This document shows, piece after piece, positions 47,504 through 56,366 of a stretch of 56,366 bases of DNA; within the stretch, counting starts at the first letter, position 1, and each line of letters starts with the position of its first letter. The position numbers were made by a program, and so were the translations under genes. Below the pieces are notes generated by a model. That model did not search any database. It saw only the letters and a program-made list of their open reading frames with translations, and was not told the origin of the DNA. Source of the DNA: Aquificaceae bacterium (GTDB lineage Bacteria > Aquificota > Aquificia > Aquificales > Aquificaceae); NCBI GenBank assembly GCA_037925805.1, contig JAXSOH010000001.1, positions 27,748-84,113 on the forward strand, read 5' to 3'.

Positions 47504-49774
47504 CTACTCCCTATCATTTTCTGACACACCCCTTGTTTTCATTATCACATATTTTGCCATAAAAAGTGCATTCCTCTTAACGGTATAGTCCTTATCTGTC
47601 TCTATAAGGGTTTTCACAAACTTTTCACGCTCTCCCCCTTTCACGTTTCTGTGAATCTGGTAATAGAAAAGTGGATAAAACTTCCACCATTTCTCCTTAC
47701 GGTTTTCTCTGAAGTATTTCATCAACATGTATATGCGATAAAAGGTTGACCTGCCTATGTATCCCTCTTTGATAAACTGCTCCAGTTTCTTTGAATTGTT
47801 AATGCCATCCTTTAGCTCCTCTTGGGTAAGGATTTCGTTAAGTATAGAAAAGTGAGGAAGATCCTCGGATTTCTCGCCTTCGGAAATTATTCTTGTTTTT
47901 TCCCTTTTTACACTTTTTTCCTCTACCTCCGCAAACTCTCCTGCAAAACGCACTGGCACTTCTGGTCTATCTATATGAAAGCCCACGGAGAAGTTCATAA
48001 TAGGGTTACAGGCGGTATATTCGTCAAAATCCTCCTTTAGCTCCAAAATCTTTTCCACAAGCTGGTCCCAAGGTCCTATCAAGAAAAAGTCATCTCCACC
48101 CGCATACAGGGTATATATGTCAGAGCCCTTGAGGAACTCGTTGAGATATCCAGAAAAGAAAAGGTCAAGACTTCTGCTCAAAGTGGCAAGCCTTGAGAGA
48201 GAATACTCCTTTATAGACTGGAATATAAGACCCAAAAAGTCCACATCACCCCTTGCAAAGGCTATCTTTTTGTCCCCTTTTGCCTTCTCAGAAAGGTTTT
48301 CAAAATCCAAGGTAGAGCCTTCTTCATTCTTTGGAACATAGTTGGCAAAAAAGAGAAAGCCATCCGCTCCCTTCTCAAGAAAGTCTGTATGGTTTATGAG
48401 ATAGACCTCCTCAAGGTCTTCCTCTGGCTCTTCTAACAGATAAACACCCCCTATGCCCTCAAGGTAAAAACCCCACCTATTTAACCACATATGCGTATCA
48501 AAGGCTATATACTTAGCCTTAGTGAGAGCGTTGCCAAGCTCAAGAAAGACTTCACACCATTTACAGACTTCCTTTCCTTCTTCTACCATTCCCCACATGC
48601 AAGAGGGACACATACCATCCCCCTTCCCATAAGCAAGCTCTTCAAAAACTTCCATAGTTAGGCTAAACTTTCTCTTCTTTTGCAGGCTTATCCTTTCGTG
48701 TAGCCTTTTCATGGTTTCCCTAAAACCCTCACCACTAAGACCCTCCTCCCTCGTATCAACCCAAGAAAGCACAAAGCCCAGCTTACCACCAAACTCCCTT
48801 ATAAAAGCCTCTTCTACCCTCTTGGCAAAACTCCTTAGCTTGTCTTCTATGCCCTCCTCGTAGCCAAAAAGTGCCAAAAACTTCCCTCCACCTGCGTATA
48901 TAAGATTACATAGAGGATATTCCAATTCTTTTAGCAATGCCCTTGCCACAAGATGAGGAAGCACCGAAAGGAAAAAGCTCCTACCCCTTAACCTCTTTGC
49001 CACACCCTTTATATTGGTAAGAGAAAAGAGAAACTCTTGAATTCCACTTATATCACCATCCACTAACAAAAACCTTTCCTTATTTGTGGAAAGTGCACAG
49101 GCTATGGCAGAGACCATCCTTGAGTGGTCAAAAAGGGATATGTCTGGATAGTGTCTTGTGCCTCTTTCCCTGTCATAGGTAGACGCAGGGACGCACCAAC
49201 AGTATTTGTAAAAGAGATGATAAACCTTTAGAAAAGCCTTGTGAAGGTCGGAAAAGTCTACCTTCTTTAACTCGGACTCAAATGCTTTGAGAATGTCCGC
49301 ATATTTATCTACAGGAGTGCCTTCCTTTGGAAATAGCACATCTTTAGTTAGCTCAAGCTTATTGAGTTCTATGTAGTATTCTTTGTCTAACTGTGAGTTA
49401 AAAAAGTTAACCTCAAGACCCAAAAAGATAGGTTTTAGCCTTTTTATGGCTTTATCGGAGATGTCTTCTTGTTCTTGACTTCTTTCTTTGCTTGAGTTTA
49501 TGTCCGCAACTTGGTATAGCTTTTGCTCTTGGTTCTTGGGCTTGTGATGAAAGGCAGAGTCAAGCACCTTTTGGTAATCGTCTGGGCTTAACTTGTTTTT
49601 TAATGCCCTCTCTATAAACTTATAAGACAGCTCCGCATGAGCGTAGCCAAAACCTTCCTTACCTTCTGCCTTTTCCCCCGCTCTGTCTAACAGCTTACCA
49701 ACATCATGAAAAAGACCCCCAAGTGCCAACAAAACCCTATACCTGTATTTATCCATAGCTCCCCTCACTAACAT
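47504..49774 (-). CDS. cas10: Cas10/Csm1 with HD nuclease and GGDD cyclase palm (start may be MDKY at 49756)
   Basis: LFHDVGK, DISLFDH, GDISGIQ, LRGRSF, CxxC..CxxC Zn finger, YAGGDDF. Confidence 0.96.
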   Translation of the reverse strand: MLVRGAMDKYRYRVLLALGGLFHDVGKLLDRAGEKAEGKEGFGYAHAELSYKFIERALKNKLSPDDYQKVLDSAFHHKPKNQEQKLYQVADINSSKERSQEQEDISDKAIKRLKPIFLGLEVNFFNSQLDKEYYIELNKLELTKDVLFPKEGTPVDKYADILKAFESELKKVDFSDLHKAFLKVYHLFYKYCWCVPASTYDRERGTRHYPDISLFDHSRMVSAIACALSTNKERFLLVDGDISGIQEFLFSLTNIKGVAKRLRGRSFFLSVLPHLVARALLKELEYPLCNLIYAGGGKFLALFGYEEGIEDKLRSFAKRVEEAFIREFGGKLGFVLSWVDTREEGLSGEGFRETMKRLHERISLQKKRKFSLTMEVFEELAYGKGDGMCPSCMWGMVEEGKEVCKWCEVFLELGNALTKAKYIAFDTHMWLNRWGFYLEGIGGVYLLEEPEEDLEEVYLINHTDFLEKGADGFLFFANYVPKNEEGSTLDFENLSEKAKGDKKIAFARGDVDFLGLIFQSIKEYSLSRLATLSRSLDLFFSGYLNEFLKGSDIYTLYAGGDDFFLIGPWDQLVEKILELKEDFDEYTACNPIMNFSVGFHIDRPEVPVRFAGEFAEVEEKSVKREKTRIISEGEKSEDLPHFSILNEILTQEELKDGINNSKKLEQFIKEGYIGRSTFYRIYMLMKYFRENRKEKWWKFYPLFYYQIHRNVKGGEREKFVKTLIETDKDYTVKRNALFMAKYVIMKTRGVSENDRE

Positions 49775-50375: not shown

Positions 50376-50932
50376 GTCTCCATCCCTCACGGTGGGCTTA
50401 AAACAAGGACACTTTGTTGGCAAGGTTTTGGTGCCAACTATGTCTCCATCCCTCACGGTGGGCTTAAAACTGATATTACTACTTCCCATTATTCCTGTGT
50501 TCTTATTGTCTCCATCCCTCACGGTGGGCTTAAAACAATTGGCAAAAGCATACGAAGATGGCGAGCTTACGGGTCTCCATCCCTCACAGTGGGCTTAAAA
50601 CAGCATTCTCACAAACTGCTCGTATTGCTCATTTGCTGTCTCCATCCCTCACAGTGGGCTTAAAACTAAGTTCATAGTAAGTGGGGACCCAGCTTTGGTT
50701 CTGTCTCCATCCCTCACAGTGGGCTTAAAACACGAGGTAAGGACTAACTAAAGGCAAGGGGCTCGGGGTCTCCATCCCTCACAGTGGGCTTAAAACAATG
50801 CATGGAATGTGTGTGGGGTGTGGGTGATAGATAAGTCTCCATCCCTCACAGTGGGCTTAAAACTCCACGTATACGGGGGGCTGATCGAAGCAAGATTCAA
50901 AATGTCTCCATCCCTCACAGTGGGCTTAAAAC
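50376..50932 (-). CRISPR. CRISPR array: 9 repeats of 29 bp and 8 spacers of 36-40 bp; crRNA-sense repeat GTTTTAAGCCCAC(T/C)GTGAGGGATGGAGAC
   Basis: Plus-strand GTCTCCATCCCTCAC(G/A)GTGGGCTTAAAAC at 50376, 50442, 50508, 50573, 50638, 50703, 50768, 50835 and 50904. Minus orientation is supported by the ATGGAGAC 3' handle and by the promoter on the right. Confidence 0.98.
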
Positions 50933-51304: not shown

Positions 51305-52030
51305 ATGCCTATTAAACTGGCTCTTAGCTTTAAGGCTGAGGCAAACTTGGAGGTTTCTAATGACCTTATGCATGCCTTTGTCTTTTCCTTGTTTCCACAA
51401 GAGGTAGCAGAAAAGGTTCACAAGAGAGAGGAAAAGCCTTTTAGCCTTAGAGGTTGGAACTTTACAGAGAGGGGTTTATTGCTTAGGATTTCTCTTTTGG
51501 AAGACCAGCTTTTTCCAGCGTTGGTTAGTCATTTTTACCTTTCTAAAAATGGCTTTAGGCTAAAGGATGTGGAGCTACAGCCTGTTGTGCCAAGTGGTCT
51601 AAGAGAAGAGGAGTCCATATCTTACCAAGAACTCTTGGAGCTTGAAGCCTGCGAGCACTACTCGGTGGACTTTATAAAACCTACCACCTTTAGAAGAGGT
51701 CGTTGGGACTATCCCCTTCCAGACCCACCCGCATTGTTTAGCAGTCTCTACAAAAAATGGAAGAGCCATCACCCTTTTCCTTTGGAAGAGGACAAGCTCC
51801 TACATCAGGTCTATTCCAAAGTTTACATCTTAGCACACAAAATAAGGGTTGAGACGGTGGAGCTTTCCTTTGGAAAACTTAGAGGTTTTGTGGGAAATGT
51901 GGTCTTTGGTGTCAATGACAAGGAGCTCTCAAGGTTAGTTCATGCCTTGCTTAAGTTTGGCGAGTTTTCTGGAGTTGGAAGAAAAAGTGCCATGGGTATG
52001 GGAGTTATGGTCTTGCGTAAAGAAACCTAA
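51305..52030 (+). CDS. cas6: CRISPR precursor processing endoribonuclease Cas6
   Basis: H...KPFS, PTTF, PLPDP, GFVG, C-terminal G-rich loop GVGRKSAMGMG. Confidence 0.93.
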   Translation: MPIKLALSFKAEANLEVSNDLMHAFVFSLFPQEVAEKVHKREEKPFSLRGWNFTERGLLLRISLLEDQLFPALVSHFYLSKNGFRLKDVELQPVVPSGLREEESISYQELLELEACEHYSVDFIKPTTFRRGRWDYPLPDPPALFSSLYKKWKSHHPFPLEEDKLLHQVYSKVYILAHKIRVETVELSFGKLRGFVGNVVFGVNDKELSRLVHALLKFGEFSGVGRKSAMGMGVMVLRKET

Positions 52031-52440
52031 GAGTCCCAGCTGGAAGAACCCCAGCTATTCCAGGAAGAGCTACCACTGTCCCAGTCATTGGAGGAATTCC
52101 ACCAATTGTCGTTGCTTGAGTCCCAATGGTTGTTAAAGACATGATACATAGGGCATGATGGGTCCCACATGGCACGGGAAATATCGCAGTCATCGTGGCT
52201 GTCCCACCTTCTTGTGGTGTCGTTGTCAAGGAATGAGTGGCTGTCCCGAAGTTTTCTGTCTTCATCCTCAAGAGGGCTATGAGAGTCTAAGGAGCTCGTG
52301 TTTGCTGGGCTGGTGTTTTCCCACTGCTCTGAAGGGTTAGAAGTCCCAGGGTGCACGTTAGAAGAGAAGGCTTCGTCGTTGGCATCTTTTATCTTCCAGA
52401 GGAGAAAGAGGACTGCCAGCAGTAAAAGTATCCATTCCAT
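52027..52440 (-). CDS. Hypothetical protein: N-terminal membrane anchor plus low-complexity S/D/N/W-rich tail
   Basis: Strong SD AGGAGGTGA; MEWILLLLAVLFLLWK anchor; repeated W-[DN]-S; stop overlaps the cas6 stop. Confidence 0.75.
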   Translation of the reverse strand: MEWILLLLAVLFLLWKIKDANDEAFSSNVHPGTSNPSEQWENTSPANTSSLDSHSPLEDEDRKLRDSHSFLDNDTTRRWDSHDDCDISRAMWDPSCPMYHVFNNHWDSSNDNWWNSSNDWDSGSSSWNSWGSSSWDS

Positions 52441-52545: not shown

Positions 52546-54012
52546 CTACCCTCCCATAGTTATAATGTATCCTCCCTCTCGCAAACTTCTTAGAAACTCA
52601 AGGTCAAGCACCCGCTCGTAGGTTCTGTCTTTGCTACTGTAGTTGTATATGTATCCCTTGTCGTAGTGTCCAAAGGCTACACCAAAAAGATATGCCAAAG
52701 CGACAGGGCAGGAAAAGAAAAAGTGAATTGCCTTATAGGCTTTCTTACCCTTTACCTCTTGCACCGCAGAGGAGACTTCTTGAGCTATCCTCTTGAAAGT
52801 GCTCGGCTCAAGGTTTCCCCTATAGGACTCTGTGGTAAGGAGCAAAAGGTCCGCAAGAATGCCCTTGCTCTCTAAGAAATGCTCCACGTCCGCAGTGGGA
52901 TTGTGGTGGGAGAAAAAGAGGACTACCGCAAGGTCTTCTCCACCTTCTTTTAGTTCACTTTTCACAAATTGGTAGTCCCTTGTGTGCTCCTTTATCTCCC
53001 TTGTGTTTTGTAGGTCAATGGGAAAGTATTTTCTCTCACTGCTATGGTAATGGTAGAAAACAGAGGGTCTTGTGTGTCCGTAGAGAATTCCCAAGGCAAA
53101 GGAAAGGCTCGCAGGTCCGTTTACCGCAATATGAGCTTTTAGCCTACCTATTAGGGTATAGTCAAGGATGCTTATGAGCCCAAAAAACCTTTTTGCAGTT
53201 TCCTGCCATCCGATACCGCTTAGCTGACTTGTTTGTATGACAAGTTTTGCTGGGTCTATGCGATGGATATTTTTTAAGTTTAGTAGGTTTTCCTCCTTAT
53301 GGAAAAACTCCTCAAGCCTTAGGTGGTCAATGGAAACCGCCACAGGAACTTCCACAATATTTGCACTTAGCCAATTCAAAAGGTCATCCACCTTAGGAAG
53401 ATGAAAGGGCATAGCCAAGTGCATATTGAACCTTTCACACACCTCAGACTTTTTATCCAAAGAGTCCACCTTCACTATGCTACCATCCTTTCTAACTCCA
53501 CCGCTCCAACAGAGGTTTGGTGGTAGCCTTTTCTTTTCCGCATCCATACACAAAGCCAAGGTCAAAGAAAGTTGAAAGCTATTTCCCACAAACTCACTGT
53601 CAAAGATAACACTAACAGACCCAGACACAAAGCCTTTGGAACGCAGATATTCCACCACTGGAGTGATATACCTTTTCTTTTCTGGTAGGTTGCAAAAGAC
53701 CTCTGGTGTATCCTTTATTGCCAGACCCCTTATTAGCTTGCCATCCCTTTCAGAGACCGCAGGAAACTCAAACTCCACATAGGGATTTTCCAAAAGTGCC
53801 TTTGCGACCGCCTTTTTTATACCCAAAGCCTTGGCAAGTTTTTCCTCATCAAAATACCTTTCAGAAAGGCGTAGATACTTTACCAAAGCAAAATGCACCC
53901 CAGGGCTTAGATAATCCCACTGCCTTATAAGGTCTACAAGGACTTCTTCCAAGTCTCCCCTGTAGAGAAACTCTATAAGGTCTTTTTCCTTGAAAAGGCT
54001 AAAGTTCCACAA
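52546..54012 (-). CDS. calpL: CalpL-like cyclic-oligoadenylate-activated Lon protease-SAVED fusion
   Basis: Lon-type dyad: GNS145F...K188, 43 residues apart, with the SGGV.KDG.I.KV segment. C-terminal SAVED motifs (IHFFFSCPVALAYLFG, YIYNY). TTG start with GGAGG SD; type III context. Confidence 0.88.
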   Translation of the reverse strand: MWNFSLFKEKDLIEFLYRGDLEEVLVDLIRQWDYLSPGVHFALVKYLRLSERYFDEEKLAKALGIKKAVAKALLENPYVEFEFPAVSERDGKLIRGLAIKDTPEVFCNLPEKKRYITPVVEYLRSKGFVSGSVSVIFDSEFVGNSFQLSLTLALCMDAEKKRLPPNLCWSGGVRKDGSIVKVDSLDKKSEVCERFNMHLAMPFHLPKVDDLLNWLSANIVEVPVAVSIDHLRLEEFFHKEENLLNLKNIHRIDPAKLVIQTSQLSGIGWQETAKRFFGLISILDYTLIGRLKAHIAVNGPASLSFALGILYGHTRPSVFYHYHSSERKYFPIDLQNTREIKEHTRDYQFVKSELKEGGEDLAVVLFFSHHNPTADVEHFLESKGILADLLLLTTESYRGNLEPSTFKRIAQEVSSAVQEVKGKKAYKAIHFFFSCPVALAYLFGVAFGHYDKGYIYNYSSKDRTYERVLDLEFLRSLREGGYIITMGG

Positions 54013-54772
54013 CCTTTAATTCCTCCGGAATGTTTATTCCAAAGAAGTTTCCAAGAATCTCCAACCTTGGAGACTCCACCTCACCCTCAAAGACCACCAC
54101 AGAACCCAAAAGCACCCTAACAACCTTACCCACAAACTCTATAGGCAAGTATAGCCTTAGCAAACCCTCCTCCAAAACCACAAAGAAATTCCCTACTTTG
54201 AAGTATCTATTATCCGCTGCGAGAGCATAAGTGCGTATCTCTTCAAGAGCCTTTTCTGTATCTGGTGAAAGCCTTATAACTTGCGCCTCTTCTCTTTCTG
54301 CAAGCTCCGCCTGAGCCAACAATGAATACATAGTCCACTTTGCCCAACGCTTAGAATTGAGTTTGATGAACCTTCTCGTGGCAAACTTTAGCTCCTTTTC
54401 CTTTGACAGGTATTCTTCTATTTTGCTTAGCTCCTCTTCAGGCAGTTTACCTATGACCTGACTGTAGTTTTCTATAAGCTCCCTTCTTAAATAATCCCAT
54501 ACTGGAACCACACCCAGTTTAAGCCCACGAGACCTTAGCTCGTAAATAGGCGTGGAGTTAGGTAAAACCTGCAAATAGGAAGTGAGAGGAACTGTTTTGT
54601 ATAGACCCTCTTGGACTTCTTGCAAAATAACAAACCTCTCTACAGGCACAGACCACAACTCCCTTATCTGCCCCACTTTCGGCTCCTTTTTATGAGGAAC
54701 TTCCAGAAGCTCATTGCTCCCTTCCTTCAAGTTCTTCTCGTATATCTCCAAAAGCTCCAATTCCAAACTCAT
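53999..54772 (-). CDS. calpT: CalpT-like anti-sigma factor / protease substrate
   Basis: Lies between the sigma factor and Lon-SAVED genes; MazF-fold-like N-terminus (PKVGQI...VPLTSY) and small beta-rich C-terminal domain. Confidence 0.8.
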   Translation of the reverse strand: MSLELELLEIYEKNLKEGSNELLEVPHKKEPKVGQIRELWSVPVERFVILQEVQEGLYKTVPLTSYLQVLPNSTPIYELRSRGLKLGVVPVWDYLRRELIENYSQVIGKLPEEELSKIEEYLSKEKELKFATRRFIKLNSKRWAKWTMYSLLAQAELAEREEAQVIRLSPDTEKALEEIRTYALAADNRYFKVGNFFVVLEEGLLRLYLPIEFVGKVVRVLLGSVVVFEGEVESPRLEILGNFFGINIPEELKVVEL

Positions 54773-55434
54773 GGCACGTCTCCTCTTTCATTACATATAT
54801 AACCCCTTTTTTGACAAACCTCTGACAAAAACCTTTCCACCATCGCCCTTATCTCCTCTGGAGAGGCATCACCTAAGATATCCTTCAGTTTACCCTTCCG
54901 TAGCCTTTCCCACCTCTTATATAGGTTATCCTTAGAAATATCCCTCAGTTCTATCTCCGAGTTATATAGATACTTATAAAAGTAATAGCATAGCACTACC
55001 ATATCTCCGTCTTTGAGATTTTTCATAAGTGTCTCAAAAAGCGTGCTACCCTCCACCTCCGCAAAGTGATGTCTCGTATCCCTGAGGTTATCTTCATAAA
55101 CTACAGGCTTTGCATCCTCCTCTTCAAAAACCTGTTCTTGAAGGCTGTAAACCTCTATCTTTTCACCGTTTATAATGTCTACTAAGAAGTTTCTTATGAG
55201 GGTTTTCAAGTAATGCAGGTTTATATACTCTAACCTCTGCAGATAGTCTTTGTTGTTTATTAGCCTAAGCCTCAGCTCAGATAGGACTTCCTCCTCGTAG
55301 TCATCTCCGAATTTTCTCCTTAGCAAGGCGTCCATATACTGGCTCAATAAGGACCTTATTAGTTTTTTCATATAGTTCTCTTCTTTTGCACCGCCATATA
55401 AAAAGCCAGAGATAAGTTGTTTGTAGTCCTTCAT
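54769..55434 (-). CDS. calpS: CalpS-like ECF sigma factor
   Basis: Region 2-like YLKTLIRNFLVD and region 4-like ISKDNLYKRWERLR; ATGA-coupled to calpT. Confidence 0.78.
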   Translation of the reverse strand: MKDYKQLISGFLYGGAKEENYMKKLIRSLLSQYMDALLRRKFGDDYEEEVLSELRLRLINNKDYLQRLEYINLHYLKTLIRNFLVDIINGEKIEVYSLQEQVFEEEDAKPVVYEDNLRDTRHHFAEVEGSTLFETLMKNLKDGDMVVLCYYFYKYLYNSEIELRDISKDNLYKRWERLRKGKLKDILGDASPEEIRAMVERFLSEVCQKRGYICNERGDVP

Positions 55435-55883
55435 CTAAAATACTCCCTTCTTAAGCTATCAAGAAACTCAAGGTCTCTACACGTGCCACAAAATTCGTAT
55501 TTAAACTCTCTAAACCTATCCTTATGCACCATATAGGCAAGCACCTCTTGTCTGTTTCTGTCTCTTAAGATAAAGCACTCTACATCAAGGCTTTGACATG
55601 CTTTATTTTTACCCCTATAGCAAAGACTGAGGTCTACCCTGCGTTTTGAGTAGGTTTTTGTAGTTAGAAAGACAATAAGGTAAAAGTCCCTTTCAAGCCT
55701 TCCTATAAAAGGTCTTCTCCTTCTCGCCTTGTATACTCCAAGGTCTAACCTAAGAAGGTCTTCAAGCCTTGATAGTGTCTCATCGGTAAAAACTCCCAAG
55801 AACCTCTCCCCAGAAGCCACAATTTTCTCTTCGTCGCCTAACTTTTTCTCAAAGAGTTTCTCAAAACCCTTGAGCTTTTCCAT
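55431..55883 (-). CDS. Hypothetical Cys-containing protein with a PemK/MazF-like motif
   Basis: RRRRPFIG...LIVFLTTK resembles the PemK/MazF K-x-R-P...V-P-h-T-T motif; ATGA-coupled to calpS; TATAAT upstream. Confidence 0.55.
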   Translation of the reverse strand: MEKLKGFEKLFEKKLGDEEKIVASGERFLGVFTDETLSRLEDLLRLDLGVYKARRRRPFIGRLERDFYLIVFLTTKTYSKRRVDLSLCYRGKNKACQSLDVECFILRDRNRQEVLAYMVHKDRFREFKYEFCGTCRDLEFLDSLRREYFR

Positions 55884-55902
55884 TTGGTAATAAGATTATA
55901 GC

Positions 55903-56310
55903 TTAGTCCTCTTTGACTGCTACCATATCAAAGATAACTAACTGCTTTTTGTTGTTTACGTGGCACATGCGAATATCATTGTCAAAGGTCAAAGAAGAGG
56001 CTACCACGCTAAAGGTTTTAGTCCCAGCGGTTATGTCTATTAAGATTTCCTTTTCCTTGTAGCCCTGTGCCTTGAGACTTTCTATTGCTTTGTTGAAAGT
56101 TCTTTGTAGGTTCAACATATCCTCATAGTCCACTGCCTCACTAAATTCAAAAATGTGGTGTTCTATCCCTGCATTTGCCCGCATATATTCAACGAACTTC
56201 TCAGAATGTTCTGCACCTTCTGGAGAAGGAATTACTACAACTTTCTTTAACTCAGCACCTTGTTCCAAGCACTTTTTTATCAAAAATTCCTGCGGGAGTG
56301 TTTCATCCAT
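55903..56310 (-). CDS. CARF-domain protein (start uncertain; frame stays open to the window edge)
   Basis: VVVIPS, VDYED, ILIDITAGTK CARF motif II, followed by a helix and the CHV strand. Confidence 0.78.
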   Translation of the reverse strand: MDETLPQEFLIKKCLEQGAELKKVVVIPSPEGAEHSEKFVEYMRANAGIEHHIFEFSEAVDYEDMLNLQRTFNKAIESLKAQGYKEKEILIDITAGTKTFSVVASSLTFDNDIRMCHVNNKKQLVIFDMVAVKED

Positions 56311-56340
56311 TGTGTAAAAATAAAGTAAGGAGGTGTTAAC

Positions 56341-56366
56341 ATGAAACAGCCAAGCAAGGAGAAAAT
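56341..56366 (+). CDS. Possible start of a divergent gene running off the window (MKQPSKEK...)
   Basis: Near-perfect SD TAAGGAGGT 6 nt before the ATG; only 8 codons visible. Confidence 0.4.

What the first reader, a model, noticed from the sequence alone, without database searches (positions are those of the whole stretch)
55431..55883. Second MazF/PemK-like gene heading the Calp operon
Seen: RRRRPFIG...LIVFLTTK and five Cys (including CGTC); its stop overlaps the calpS ATG. Established: PemK/MazF RNases use an Arg in the R-P motif and a Thr in the hTT motif; the CalpT N-terminus has a MazF-like fold. Inference: orf150 keeps the R-P and TT residues, whereas the CalpT-like protein lacks R-P. 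It may therefore be an active RNase held in check by heterodimerising with CalpT and released by proteolysis, which would add a toxin arm to the sigma arm.
Basis: partly seen in the sequence, partly recalled or inferred. Interest (0 to 1): 0.75.

Follow-up and report, generated by a model that had tools for sequence, protein, structure and literature searches.

The report
Overlooked MazF-like fourth Calp gene
A small gene sits directly in front of the sigma-factor gene in nearly every Aquificota copy examined of a CRISPR alarm cascade described as having three parts; its protein is predicted to fold like the RNA-cutting toxin MazF and keeps the two likely catalytic residues, so the cascade likely has an untested RNA-cutting fourth arm.

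Summary
orf150 (55883-55431, minus strand) overlaps calpS by ATGA and heads orf150-calpS-calpT-calpL beside a type III CRISPR locus. Homologues lie directly upstream of calpS in 64 of 66 calpS loci fetched from Aquificota (22 of 24 in the loci chosen by calpS alone) and in 8 of 8 Desulfobacterota loci. Two AlphaFold models rank MazF/PemK/ToxN structures first (Z 6-7, modest). Arg57 and Thr/Ser74, which align with the MazF catalytic pair, are kept in 103 of 103 rows; four cysteines are nearly invariant. Diverged members match C3a162, an 'unknown' type III accessory family whose listed members include SYO3AOP1_0653, three locus tags before the published CalpL gene. The Calp papers I could read call the system tripartite; I found no text giving this gene a fold or role. 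RNase activity, toxicity and CalpT binding are untested. An intact orphan copy in a genome without calpS/T/L argues against a simple CalpT-neutralised broad toxin. Verdict: new variant of a known system, a likely fourth component.

The parts
55431..55883 (-). orf150: C3a162-related protein, predicted PemK/MazF-superfamily fold, R57-P58 and T74, conserved C88/C96/C132/C135; first gene of the calp cassette
55895..55900 (-). TATAAT hexamer 11 nt before the orf150 ATG, no Shine-Dalgarno visible; likely -10 box of a near-leaderless sigma-70-type promoter (no -35 match)
   Evidence: sequence; family 20 of 76 vs 0 of 74/73/68 for calpS/T/L and 153 of 1297 genome ORFs; the two-hexamer scan found no promoter
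54769..55434 (-). calpS-like ECF-type sigma factor, 221 aa, ATG overlapping the orf150 stop
   Evidence: position between orf150 and calpT; PADLOC HTH E 2.5e-43; weak SigB/F/G hit E 0.006; no direct CalpS model was available
53999..54772 (-). calpT anti-sigma, 257 aa, MazF-like N-domain without conserved Arg-Pro, Ala-rich putative cut site ALAA 183-186
   Evidence: PADLOC CRISPR-T E 2e-13; family profile hits PDB CalpT10 (8b0u) E 9.4e-6; alignment
52546..54012 (-). calpL Lon-SAVED protease, 488 aa as listed, S145 and K188 invariant
   Evidence: Pfam SAVED E 4e-25; PADLOC CRISPR-Lon E 2e-96; PDB 7qda E 2.9e-31
47504..49774 (-). cas10-like gene with HD and GGDD motifs; likely source of the cyclic oligoadenylate signal
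   Evidence: motifs; CRISPR-like array at about 50376-50913; label rests on motifs and context, not on a family scan

Best explanation
orf150 is the first, translationally coupled gene of the calpS-calpT-calpL cassette and encodes a protein predicted to have a MazF/PemK fold that is likely a latent, narrow-specificity RNase, which would be switched on by the cA4-CalpL cascade, most likely through the MazF-like domain of CalpT. Shown: gene order, overlap, conservation across Aquificota and Thermodesulfobacteria-type genomes, invariant Arg57 and Thr/Ser74. Predicted: the fold and the match of these residues to the MazF catalytic pair; a Cys4 zinc site or two disulfides. Published for other Calp loci: cA4 activates CalpL, which cuts CalpT; CalpT's N-fragment is then degraded and CalpS released. 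Inferred: the protein is made constitutively in step with CalpS, sits on the CalpT-CalpS complex (basic protein, acidic CalpT, both MazF-like, as in a MazF pseudo-dimer), and cuts a limited set of RNAs once CalpT is cut or removed, adding an RNA-decay arm to the transcriptional arm. Whether CalpT inhibits it or its cut form completes it is open.
For: Directly upstream of calpS in 64 of 66 calpS loci, 22 of 24 in loci chosen by calpS alone, 8 of 8 distinct Desulfobacterota loci (chosen by the orf150 profile); stop and calpS start overlap or lie within 3 nt in all 37 loci listed. Top 12 rows of the first wide structure search are all MazF/PemK/CptN/CcdB (Z 6.0, rmsd 3.0, 93 aligned for the best); a second member of about 18% identity gives Z 7.0, rmsd 3.2, 94 aligned, 8 of the top 8 rows from that superfamily, Foldseek prob 0.96 but E 0.045. 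Profile alignment to 30 PemK proteins places R57-P58 on the PemK R-P and L-T-T on I-T-S (P 0.001, prob 21%). Arg and Thr are the MazF catalytic pair (PMC11394972, passages). R57 103 of 103, T/S74 103 of 103 while mean pairwise identity is 24%. Median pI 9.35 vs 4.96 for CalpT. CalpT was predicted to mimic a MazE/F complex and its fragment showed no unspecific RNase activity (10.1101/2021.12.06.471393, sections 5 and 7). No antitoxin-like small gene lies between the upstream gene and orf150 in the window (19 nt gap).
Against: No sequence library assigns the protein to PemK; Z 6-7 is within the range of common arrangements by the tool's own note, and the same fold includes the non-RNase CcdB. 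T/S at this column is also kept in CalpT (33 of 33), so it may be structural; L161 reads F-L-I-S at that place. The long C-terminal helix that MazF uses in its dimer is short or absent in both models. Intact orphan in G088 without calpS/T/L/cas10 hits, dN 0.14 vs dS 1.95 to its nearest relative. The cassette occurs without the gene in G077 (99% complete) and with it frameshifted in L121, so it is dispensable. One paper argues that the Calp pathway is a reversible adjustment, not abortive infection (PMC11417357, passage).
Confidence: 0.45

Rival explanations
1. Non-catalytic adaptor or chaperone of the CalpT-CalpS complex, the functional counterpart of Csx31 in type III-E loci: it stabilises the complex or helps release CalpS, and Arg57 binds an acidic partner or nucleic acid.
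For: Strict coupling to calpS; orphan tolerated; basic protein beside an acidic anti-sigma, as reported for Csx31 and Csx30, which form a ternary complex with RpoE (10.1101/2022.08.17.504292, passages); CalpS stays bound to cut CalpT in vitro (10.1101/2024.05.08.593097, passages).
Against: The only fully fixed non-Cys positions are the two that align with the MazF catalytic pair, whereas the pseudo-MazF CalpT has lost the Arg. The three-protein cascade was reconstituted without it. No sequence comparison with Csx31 was made.
Confidence: 0.25
2. The enzyme acts on the signal itself: a ring nuclease or a nuclease for linear oligoadenylates that sets the threshold or off-switch of CalpL.
For: MazF chemistry yields 2',3'-cyclic-phosphate ends of the kind ring nucleases make; MazF is used to make A2>P and A4>P standards (PMC11417357, passage). 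Explains low toxicity, likely constitutive expression and the orphan.
Against: CalpL is itself a ring nuclease (abstract and passages); the gene tracks calpS, not cas10 or other CARF effectors; the orphan genome has no cas10 hit.
Confidence: 0.15
3. A constitutively active but very narrow RNase (one tRNA, rRNA site or the operon's own mRNA) that tunes the cassette and is not gated by CalpT cleavage.
For: Catalytic residues kept; orphan tolerated; TATAAT directly before the start.
Against: Does not explain why it stays fused to the calpS start across two phyla.
Confidence: 0.1
4. An ordinary type II or type III toxin-antitoxin toxin that hitchhikes beside the calp genes.
For: Fold shared with MazF and CptN/ToxN; orphan and tandem copies exist.
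Against: No member passes PemK or ToxN models; upstream neighbours vary from locus to locus and in the window only 19 nt separate it from the previous gene, leaving no room for an antitoxin gene or RNA repeat array; 69 of 71 calpS genomes carry it.
Confidence: 0.05

Closest known systems
CalpL-CalpT-CalpS (type III CRISPR Lon-SAVED protease, anti-sigma, ECF-like sigma; 10.1101/2021.12.06.471393, 10.1101/2024.05.08.593097, PMC11417357)
   Same: The three downstream genes are orthologues, same order, beside cas10 and an array.
   Different: Described as tripartite in the passages read; here a fourth coupled gene is nearly constant in Aquificota.
C3a162 (cluster 162 of Shah et al., PMC6546367; PADLOC PDLC01080)
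   Same: 20 of 75 family rows match the model, best E 2.3e-60 over its whole length. The paper lists SYO3AOP1_0653 and Calni_1607 in this cluster, with CalpT/CalpL clusters at _0655/_0656 and _1605/_1604.
   Different: Listed as 'unknown structure-function', 3 members, with no link to the Lon cluster in the passages read; the window's own protein does not hit the model and joins it only through intermediate homologues.
PemK/MazF endoribonuclease toxins (PF02452)
   Same: Predicted SH3-like barrel; R-P and hydrophobic-hydrophobic-T/S motifs in register; C132-G-x-C135 sits where PemK has I/L-G-x-L/I before the last helix (read from alignments).
   Different: Below all family cut-offs; extra helix between strands 1 and 2; Arg-to-Thr spacing 17 instead of about 23; four conserved Cys; short C-terminal helix; no mazE.
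Type III TA toxins CptN/ToxN/AbiQ
   Same: Tied with MazF in the structure searches (CptN Z 5.5 and 5.9, about 100 aligned).
   Different: No room for an upstream RNA antitoxin array in the window; no PF13958 hit; a profile comparison could not be made (one search found no ToxN sequences).
Csx31 of type III-E (Csx29-Csx30-Csx31-RpoE)
   Same: Small basic fourth protein in a CRISPR protease/anti-sigma/sigma cassette.
   Different: No homology tested or shown; different protease and trigger.

Membership tests
PemK/MazF (PF02452) | Passes the Pfam PemK_toxin model | tested here: not met
   0 families for P0001; no PemK among families listed for 35 and 75 members (the latter shows the first 25 of 51 families)
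PemK/MazF (PF02452) | SH3-like CcdB/PemK barrel | tested here: met
   Predicted models only; best rows Z 6.0/rmsd 3.0/93 aligned and Z 7.0/rmsd 3.2/94 aligned, superfamily fills the top of both lists; Foldseek E above 0.001
PemK/MazF (PF02452) | Catalytic Arg and Thr in register | tested here: met
   Profile alignment P 0.001, prob 21%; R57 and T/S74 in 103 of 103 rows; residue-level structural superposition not available
PemK/MazF (PF02452) | Homodimer using the last long helix | not tested
   Helix short or absent in both monomer models; no dimer model run
PemK/MazF (PF02452) | Cognate antitoxin gene directly upstream | tested here: not met
   Upstream genes differ among loci; 19-nt gap to a CARF gene in the window
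PemK/MazF (PF02452) | Sequence-specific RNase activity and toxicity | not testable with these tools
   needs bench assay
Type III TA toxins (ToxN/CptN/AbiQ) | Sequence/profile similarity to ToxN | tested here: inconclusive
   No Pfam hit for members; no ToxN sequences obtained for a profile comparison
Type III TA toxins (ToxN/CptN/AbiQ) | Tandem RNA antitoxin repeats directly upstream | tested here: not met
   19-nt intergenic gap in the window; 130-nt upstream regions of 71 members read by eye show no shared array
C3a162 | Match to the PADLOC/Shah model | tested here: inconclusive
   P0001 no hit at E<=1; 20 of 75 rows of the same profile-linked family hit, best E 2.3e-60
C3a162 | Type III-adjacent position three genes from the Lon-SAVED gene | tested here: met
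   Same spacing of locus tags in the paper's supplement as gene order here
CalpL-CalpT-CalpS system | Lon-SAVED protease with Ser-Lys dyad | tested here: met
CalpL-CalpT-CalpS system | CalpT with MazF-like N-domain and Ala-rich cut site | tested here: met
   cleavage itself not tested
CalpL-CalpT-CalpS system | ECF-like sigma CalpS | tested here: inconclusive
   HTH model and weak sigma hit only; assigned by position
CalpL-CalpT-CalpS system | cA4-producing Cas10 in the genome | tested here: met
   cas10-like gene with GGDD 2.8 kb away; product not tested

The most novel reading that the evidence does not exclude
The Calp cascade is a four-part system in which CalpT is a dual lock: anti-sigma for CalpS and dead MazF half plus built-in MazE for a zinc-binding MazF-fold RNase. 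One cA4-triggered cut unleashes both a sigma factor and an RNase: a protease-gated toxin-antitoxin heterodimer wired to CRISPR signalling, and the missing MazF activity first sought in CalpT23.
Probability: 0.3. Interest if true: 0.85.

Novelty: new variant of a known kind. Interest (0 to 1): 0.67.

Why it matters
The Calp cascade is a reference case of protease signalling in CRISPR immunity, and it has been reconstituted and modelled with three proteins. A fourth, translationally coupled gene listed at the model organism's locus, with a predicted RNase fold and fixed catalytic-type residues, means the published output (release of a sigma factor with unknown targets) may be incomplete. It gives a fold and a testable function to a type III accessory family left as unknown, offers a reason why CalpT carries a MazF-like domain, and can be tested directly with the existing thermostable reagents.

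Tried and rejected
Complex prediction of CalpT(1-187) + CalpS + orf150 with paired alignments: no answer (score 0.00 in two runs, mark 0.32, controls not folded); it says nothing for or against binding. No homodimer job could be run. Pfam, NCBIfam and PDB sequence searches gave no meaningful family. Profile comparison of orf150 with CalpT was not significant (P 0.23 and 0.4). Foldseek found no match at E<=0.001 in PDB or viral libraries. No homologue in phage or plasmid collections with P0001. No longer, fused form among 411-2000 aa proteins (weak evidence; 362-410 aa not covered). The protein atlas gave no result. ToxN search rang in 0 of 351 genomes and 0 controls, so the ToxN-likeness of the strand-helix-strand start is untested. 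Autoregulation by CalpS: looked for a shared ECF-type motif by eye in 71 upstream regions and saw only TATAAT-like boxes; no formal motif search. Distance correlations of orf150 with CalpS/T/L (0.53-0.57) equal those among S/T/L (0.56-0.63; 51 loci) and reflect shared ancestry, so were not used as co-evolution evidence. The idea that many cassettes lack type III CRISPR came from a single-protein cas10 search; the Cmr2 family model then found cas10 in 7 of 10 genomes re-tested. Calp loci of Cloacimonadota and Thermotogota could not be reached. Earlier scan findings: none by sequence or specific words; eight generic Calp-like reports do not concern this gene.

Full report
Observation. The ORF is real: 55883..55431, minus strand, 150 aa, with RRRRPFIG at 54-61, LIVFLTTK at 69-76 and Cys at 88, 96, 103, 132, 135; its stop overlaps the next start as ATGA. 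Downstream, each gene overlapping the next, lie a 221-aa sigma-like gene, a 257-aa CalpT (PADLOC CRISPR-T E 2e-13; family profile hits the solved CalpT10) and CalpL (SAVED E 4e-25; PDB 7qda E 2.9e-31; Ser145 and Lys188 invariant in 21 rows). A cas10-like gene with HD and GGDD and a repeat array lie within 3 kb of calpL. The genome holds one copy of each calp gene. The window ends at the contig end.

Distribution. P0001 has no Pfam or NCBIfam family. A 35-row profile found homologues in 49 of 178 Aquificota genomes. Of 40 neighbourhoods fetched around such hits, 37 had calpS directly downstream; the others were an orphan (L058), an 80-aa remnant (L061) and a contig end (L082). The reverse test is the stronger one. 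calpS was found in 71 of 178 genomes; 46 of them were among the 49 (my count from the two tables). Of the other 25 I fetched 24, and in 22 the ORF directly upstream of calpS was a diverged homologue with R-P and Cys motifs; the 25th (G084) has a fragment on another contig. G077 and G097 have none. So 69 of 71 calpS genomes carry the gene, and 64 of 66 fetched calpS loci have it directly upstream. These genomes are kin and not independent. Outside the phylum, 6 of 401 sampled Desulfobacterota genomes had a hit; in all 8 distinct loci examined the gene precedes calpS (loci chosen by this gene). What lies further upstream varies, so the gene belongs to the cassette and heads it: TATAAT stands 4-16 nt before a start in 20 of 76 family genes, 0 of 74 calpS, 0 of 73 calpT, 0 of 68 calpL and 153 of 1297 genome ORFs. 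In the window it lies 11 nt before the ATG; no -35 box was found. I infer constitutive, near-leaderless expression coupled to calpS.

Fold and residues. AlphaFold2 gave a confident model (pLDDT 90.5, pTM 0.84). In the wide structure search the first 12 rows were all MazF, PemK/Kid, CptN or CcdB (best Z 6.0, rmsd 3.0, 93 aligned); Foldseek had no match at E<=0.001 but MazF/ToxN filled ranks 2-9. A second member of about 18% identity (pLDDT 87.3) gave Z 7.0, rmsd 3.2, 94 aligned, and Foldseek prob 0.96 at E 0.045 to MazF. These Z values are modest, but the ranking repeats. A profile alignment against 30 PemK proteins from the same phylum put R57-P58 on the PemK R-P and L73-T74-T75 on I-T-S (P 0.0036 with 76 rows; P 0.001, prob 21% with 103 rows; the CalpS control gave P 0.077). 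Arg and Thr at these places are the MazF catalytic pair (PMC11394972, passages). In 103 rows (near-duplicates and a few partial sequences included; rows under 100 aa left out) R57 is in 103, T/S74 in 103, P58 in 102, C88 in 103, C96 in 94, C132 in 99, C135 in 98. One later locus, L161, reads F-L-I-S there. CalpT keeps the T/S (33 of 33) but not the Arg (9 of 33), so the Arg is the telling residue. The four Cys may bind zinc or form disulfides; geometry was not checked. The models differ from MazF by a helix between strands 1 and 2 and by a short or missing last helix, so a normal MazF homodimer is not assured.

What is known. PADLOC model C3a162 ('unknown function') matched 20 of 75 family rows, best E 2.3e-60, though not P0001 itself. 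Its source (PMC6546367; passages and supplement rows) lists cluster 162 with three genes: SYO3AOP1_0653, Calni_1607 and HCD_08230, 'unknown structure-function'. The same supplement puts SYO3AOP1_0655/_0656 and Calni_1605/_1604 in the clusters that correspond to CalpT and the Lon protease, which gives the same order as here. So the organism in which CalpL/T/S was characterised is listed with this family three tags before calpL. CLOAM and Ferpe genes appear in those two clusters but not in cluster 162, so the gene may be missing or too diverged there. Full-text searches for 'C3a162' and 'SYO3AOP1_0653' returned only that paper as relevant; searches on CalpL/CalpT/CalpS, MazF and PemK gave papers that, in the parts read, call the system tripartite: 10.1101/2021.12.06.471393 (abstract, sections 5 and 7), 10.1101/2024.05.08.593097 (passages, section 5), PMC11417357, 10.1101/2025.07.01.662501 and PMC11229360 (passages). 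The final Nature paper was not held and preprint supplements and figures could not be seen; a gene-neighbourhood figure there may show the gene.

Mechanism. Published: cA4 activates CalpL, CalpT is cut at an Ala, its N-fragment is degraded and CalpS is freed. The first preprint proposed that the MazF-like CalpT23 was the toxin, noted helices mimicking MazE, and found no unspecific RNase activity. The present gene supplies a MazF-fold protein that keeps the Arg, is basic (median pI 9.35 against 4.96 for CalpT) and is made in step with CalpS. My best reading is a latent, narrow RNase gated through the CalpT MazF domain (0.45). Every step after gene order and conservation is inferred.

Evidence against. 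G088 (99% complete, 20 contigs) has an intact copy beside a CRISPR array, 75% identical to its nearest relative with dN 0.14 and dS 1.95, but no calpS, calpL, calpT or cas10 hit. A broad toxin that needs CalpT as antitoxin should not persist so, unless silent or recently orphaned; a partner-dependent or narrow enzyme, an adaptor, or a signal nuclease could. G077 has calpS-T-L without it and L121 has it frameshifted, so it is dispensable, and the three-protein cascade works in vitro. Rivals: Csx31-like adaptor (0.25), oligoadenylate nuclease (0.15), ungated narrow RNase (0.10), hitchhiking TA toxin (0.05).

Verdict. A conserved, overlooked fourth gene of the Calp operon in Aquificota and Thermodesulfobacteria-type genomes (about 0.95), MazF-superfamily fold (about 0.85), catalytically active on RNA or oligoadenylate (about 0.65). 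It works like a PemK/MazF enzyme by prediction but fails the family's sequence and antitoxin criteria, so it is not filed as a member. New variant of a known kind; interest 0.67.

Noticed in passing
window 55903-56366 (-): CARF gene upstream of orf150. Relatives are 248-aa two-TM CARF proteins (PADLOC CARF_2M E 3e-24); the window copy matches only residues 120-248 and the N-half is not found elsewhere in the assembly. Probably a contig-end break.
   Followed up: partly
L057:8403-9340 (G101; also G102, G104, G105, G108): Tandem duplication of the orf150 gene in one genus; both L057 copies intact with R-P and T, about 52% identical class; each preceded by TATAAT. A natural candidate for a paralogue heterodimer.
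   Followed up: partly
L058:8509-8943 (G088): Intact orphan homologue between a 35-repeat CRISPR array and a housekeeping gene, in a genome with no calp or cas10 hit.
   Followed up: yes
L150:6247-8638 (G164): calpT-calpL pair directly before a cas10-like gene with neither calpS nor orf150 upstream; the genome has a full four-gene cassette elsewhere (L067).
   Followed up: partly
L133:7163-10461 (G077): calpS-calpT-calpL without the fourth gene, preceded by a homoserine-kinase-like gene (label from sequence recall).
   Followed up: partly
L045:8647-9314 (G015); L121:1112-1605; L061 and L163 (G091): Decay states: calpS in two pieces with orf150 intact; orf150 in two pieces with S/T/L intact; scattered orf150 and calpT remnants in a complete genome.
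   Followed up: no
L118, L123, L125, L126: 227-234-aa family members with an N-terminal coiled-coil-like extension and an insertion before the CxxC.
   Followed up: no
window 52027-52440 (-): 137-aa ORF after calpL: hydrophobic N-terminus and Ser/Asp/Trp-rich low-complexity tail, no Pfam or NCBIfam hit.
   Followed up: no
upstream of the gene in L053, L054, L056, L058, L081: A shared TATTC(A/T)..TTG(C/T)CAAG-like stretch, resembling the reverse of the boxA element of CRISPR leaders (recalled, not tested).
   Followed up: no
G028 (L052): Full four-gene cassette in a 99%-complete, 70-contig genome where neither cas10 query found a match.
   Followed up: no
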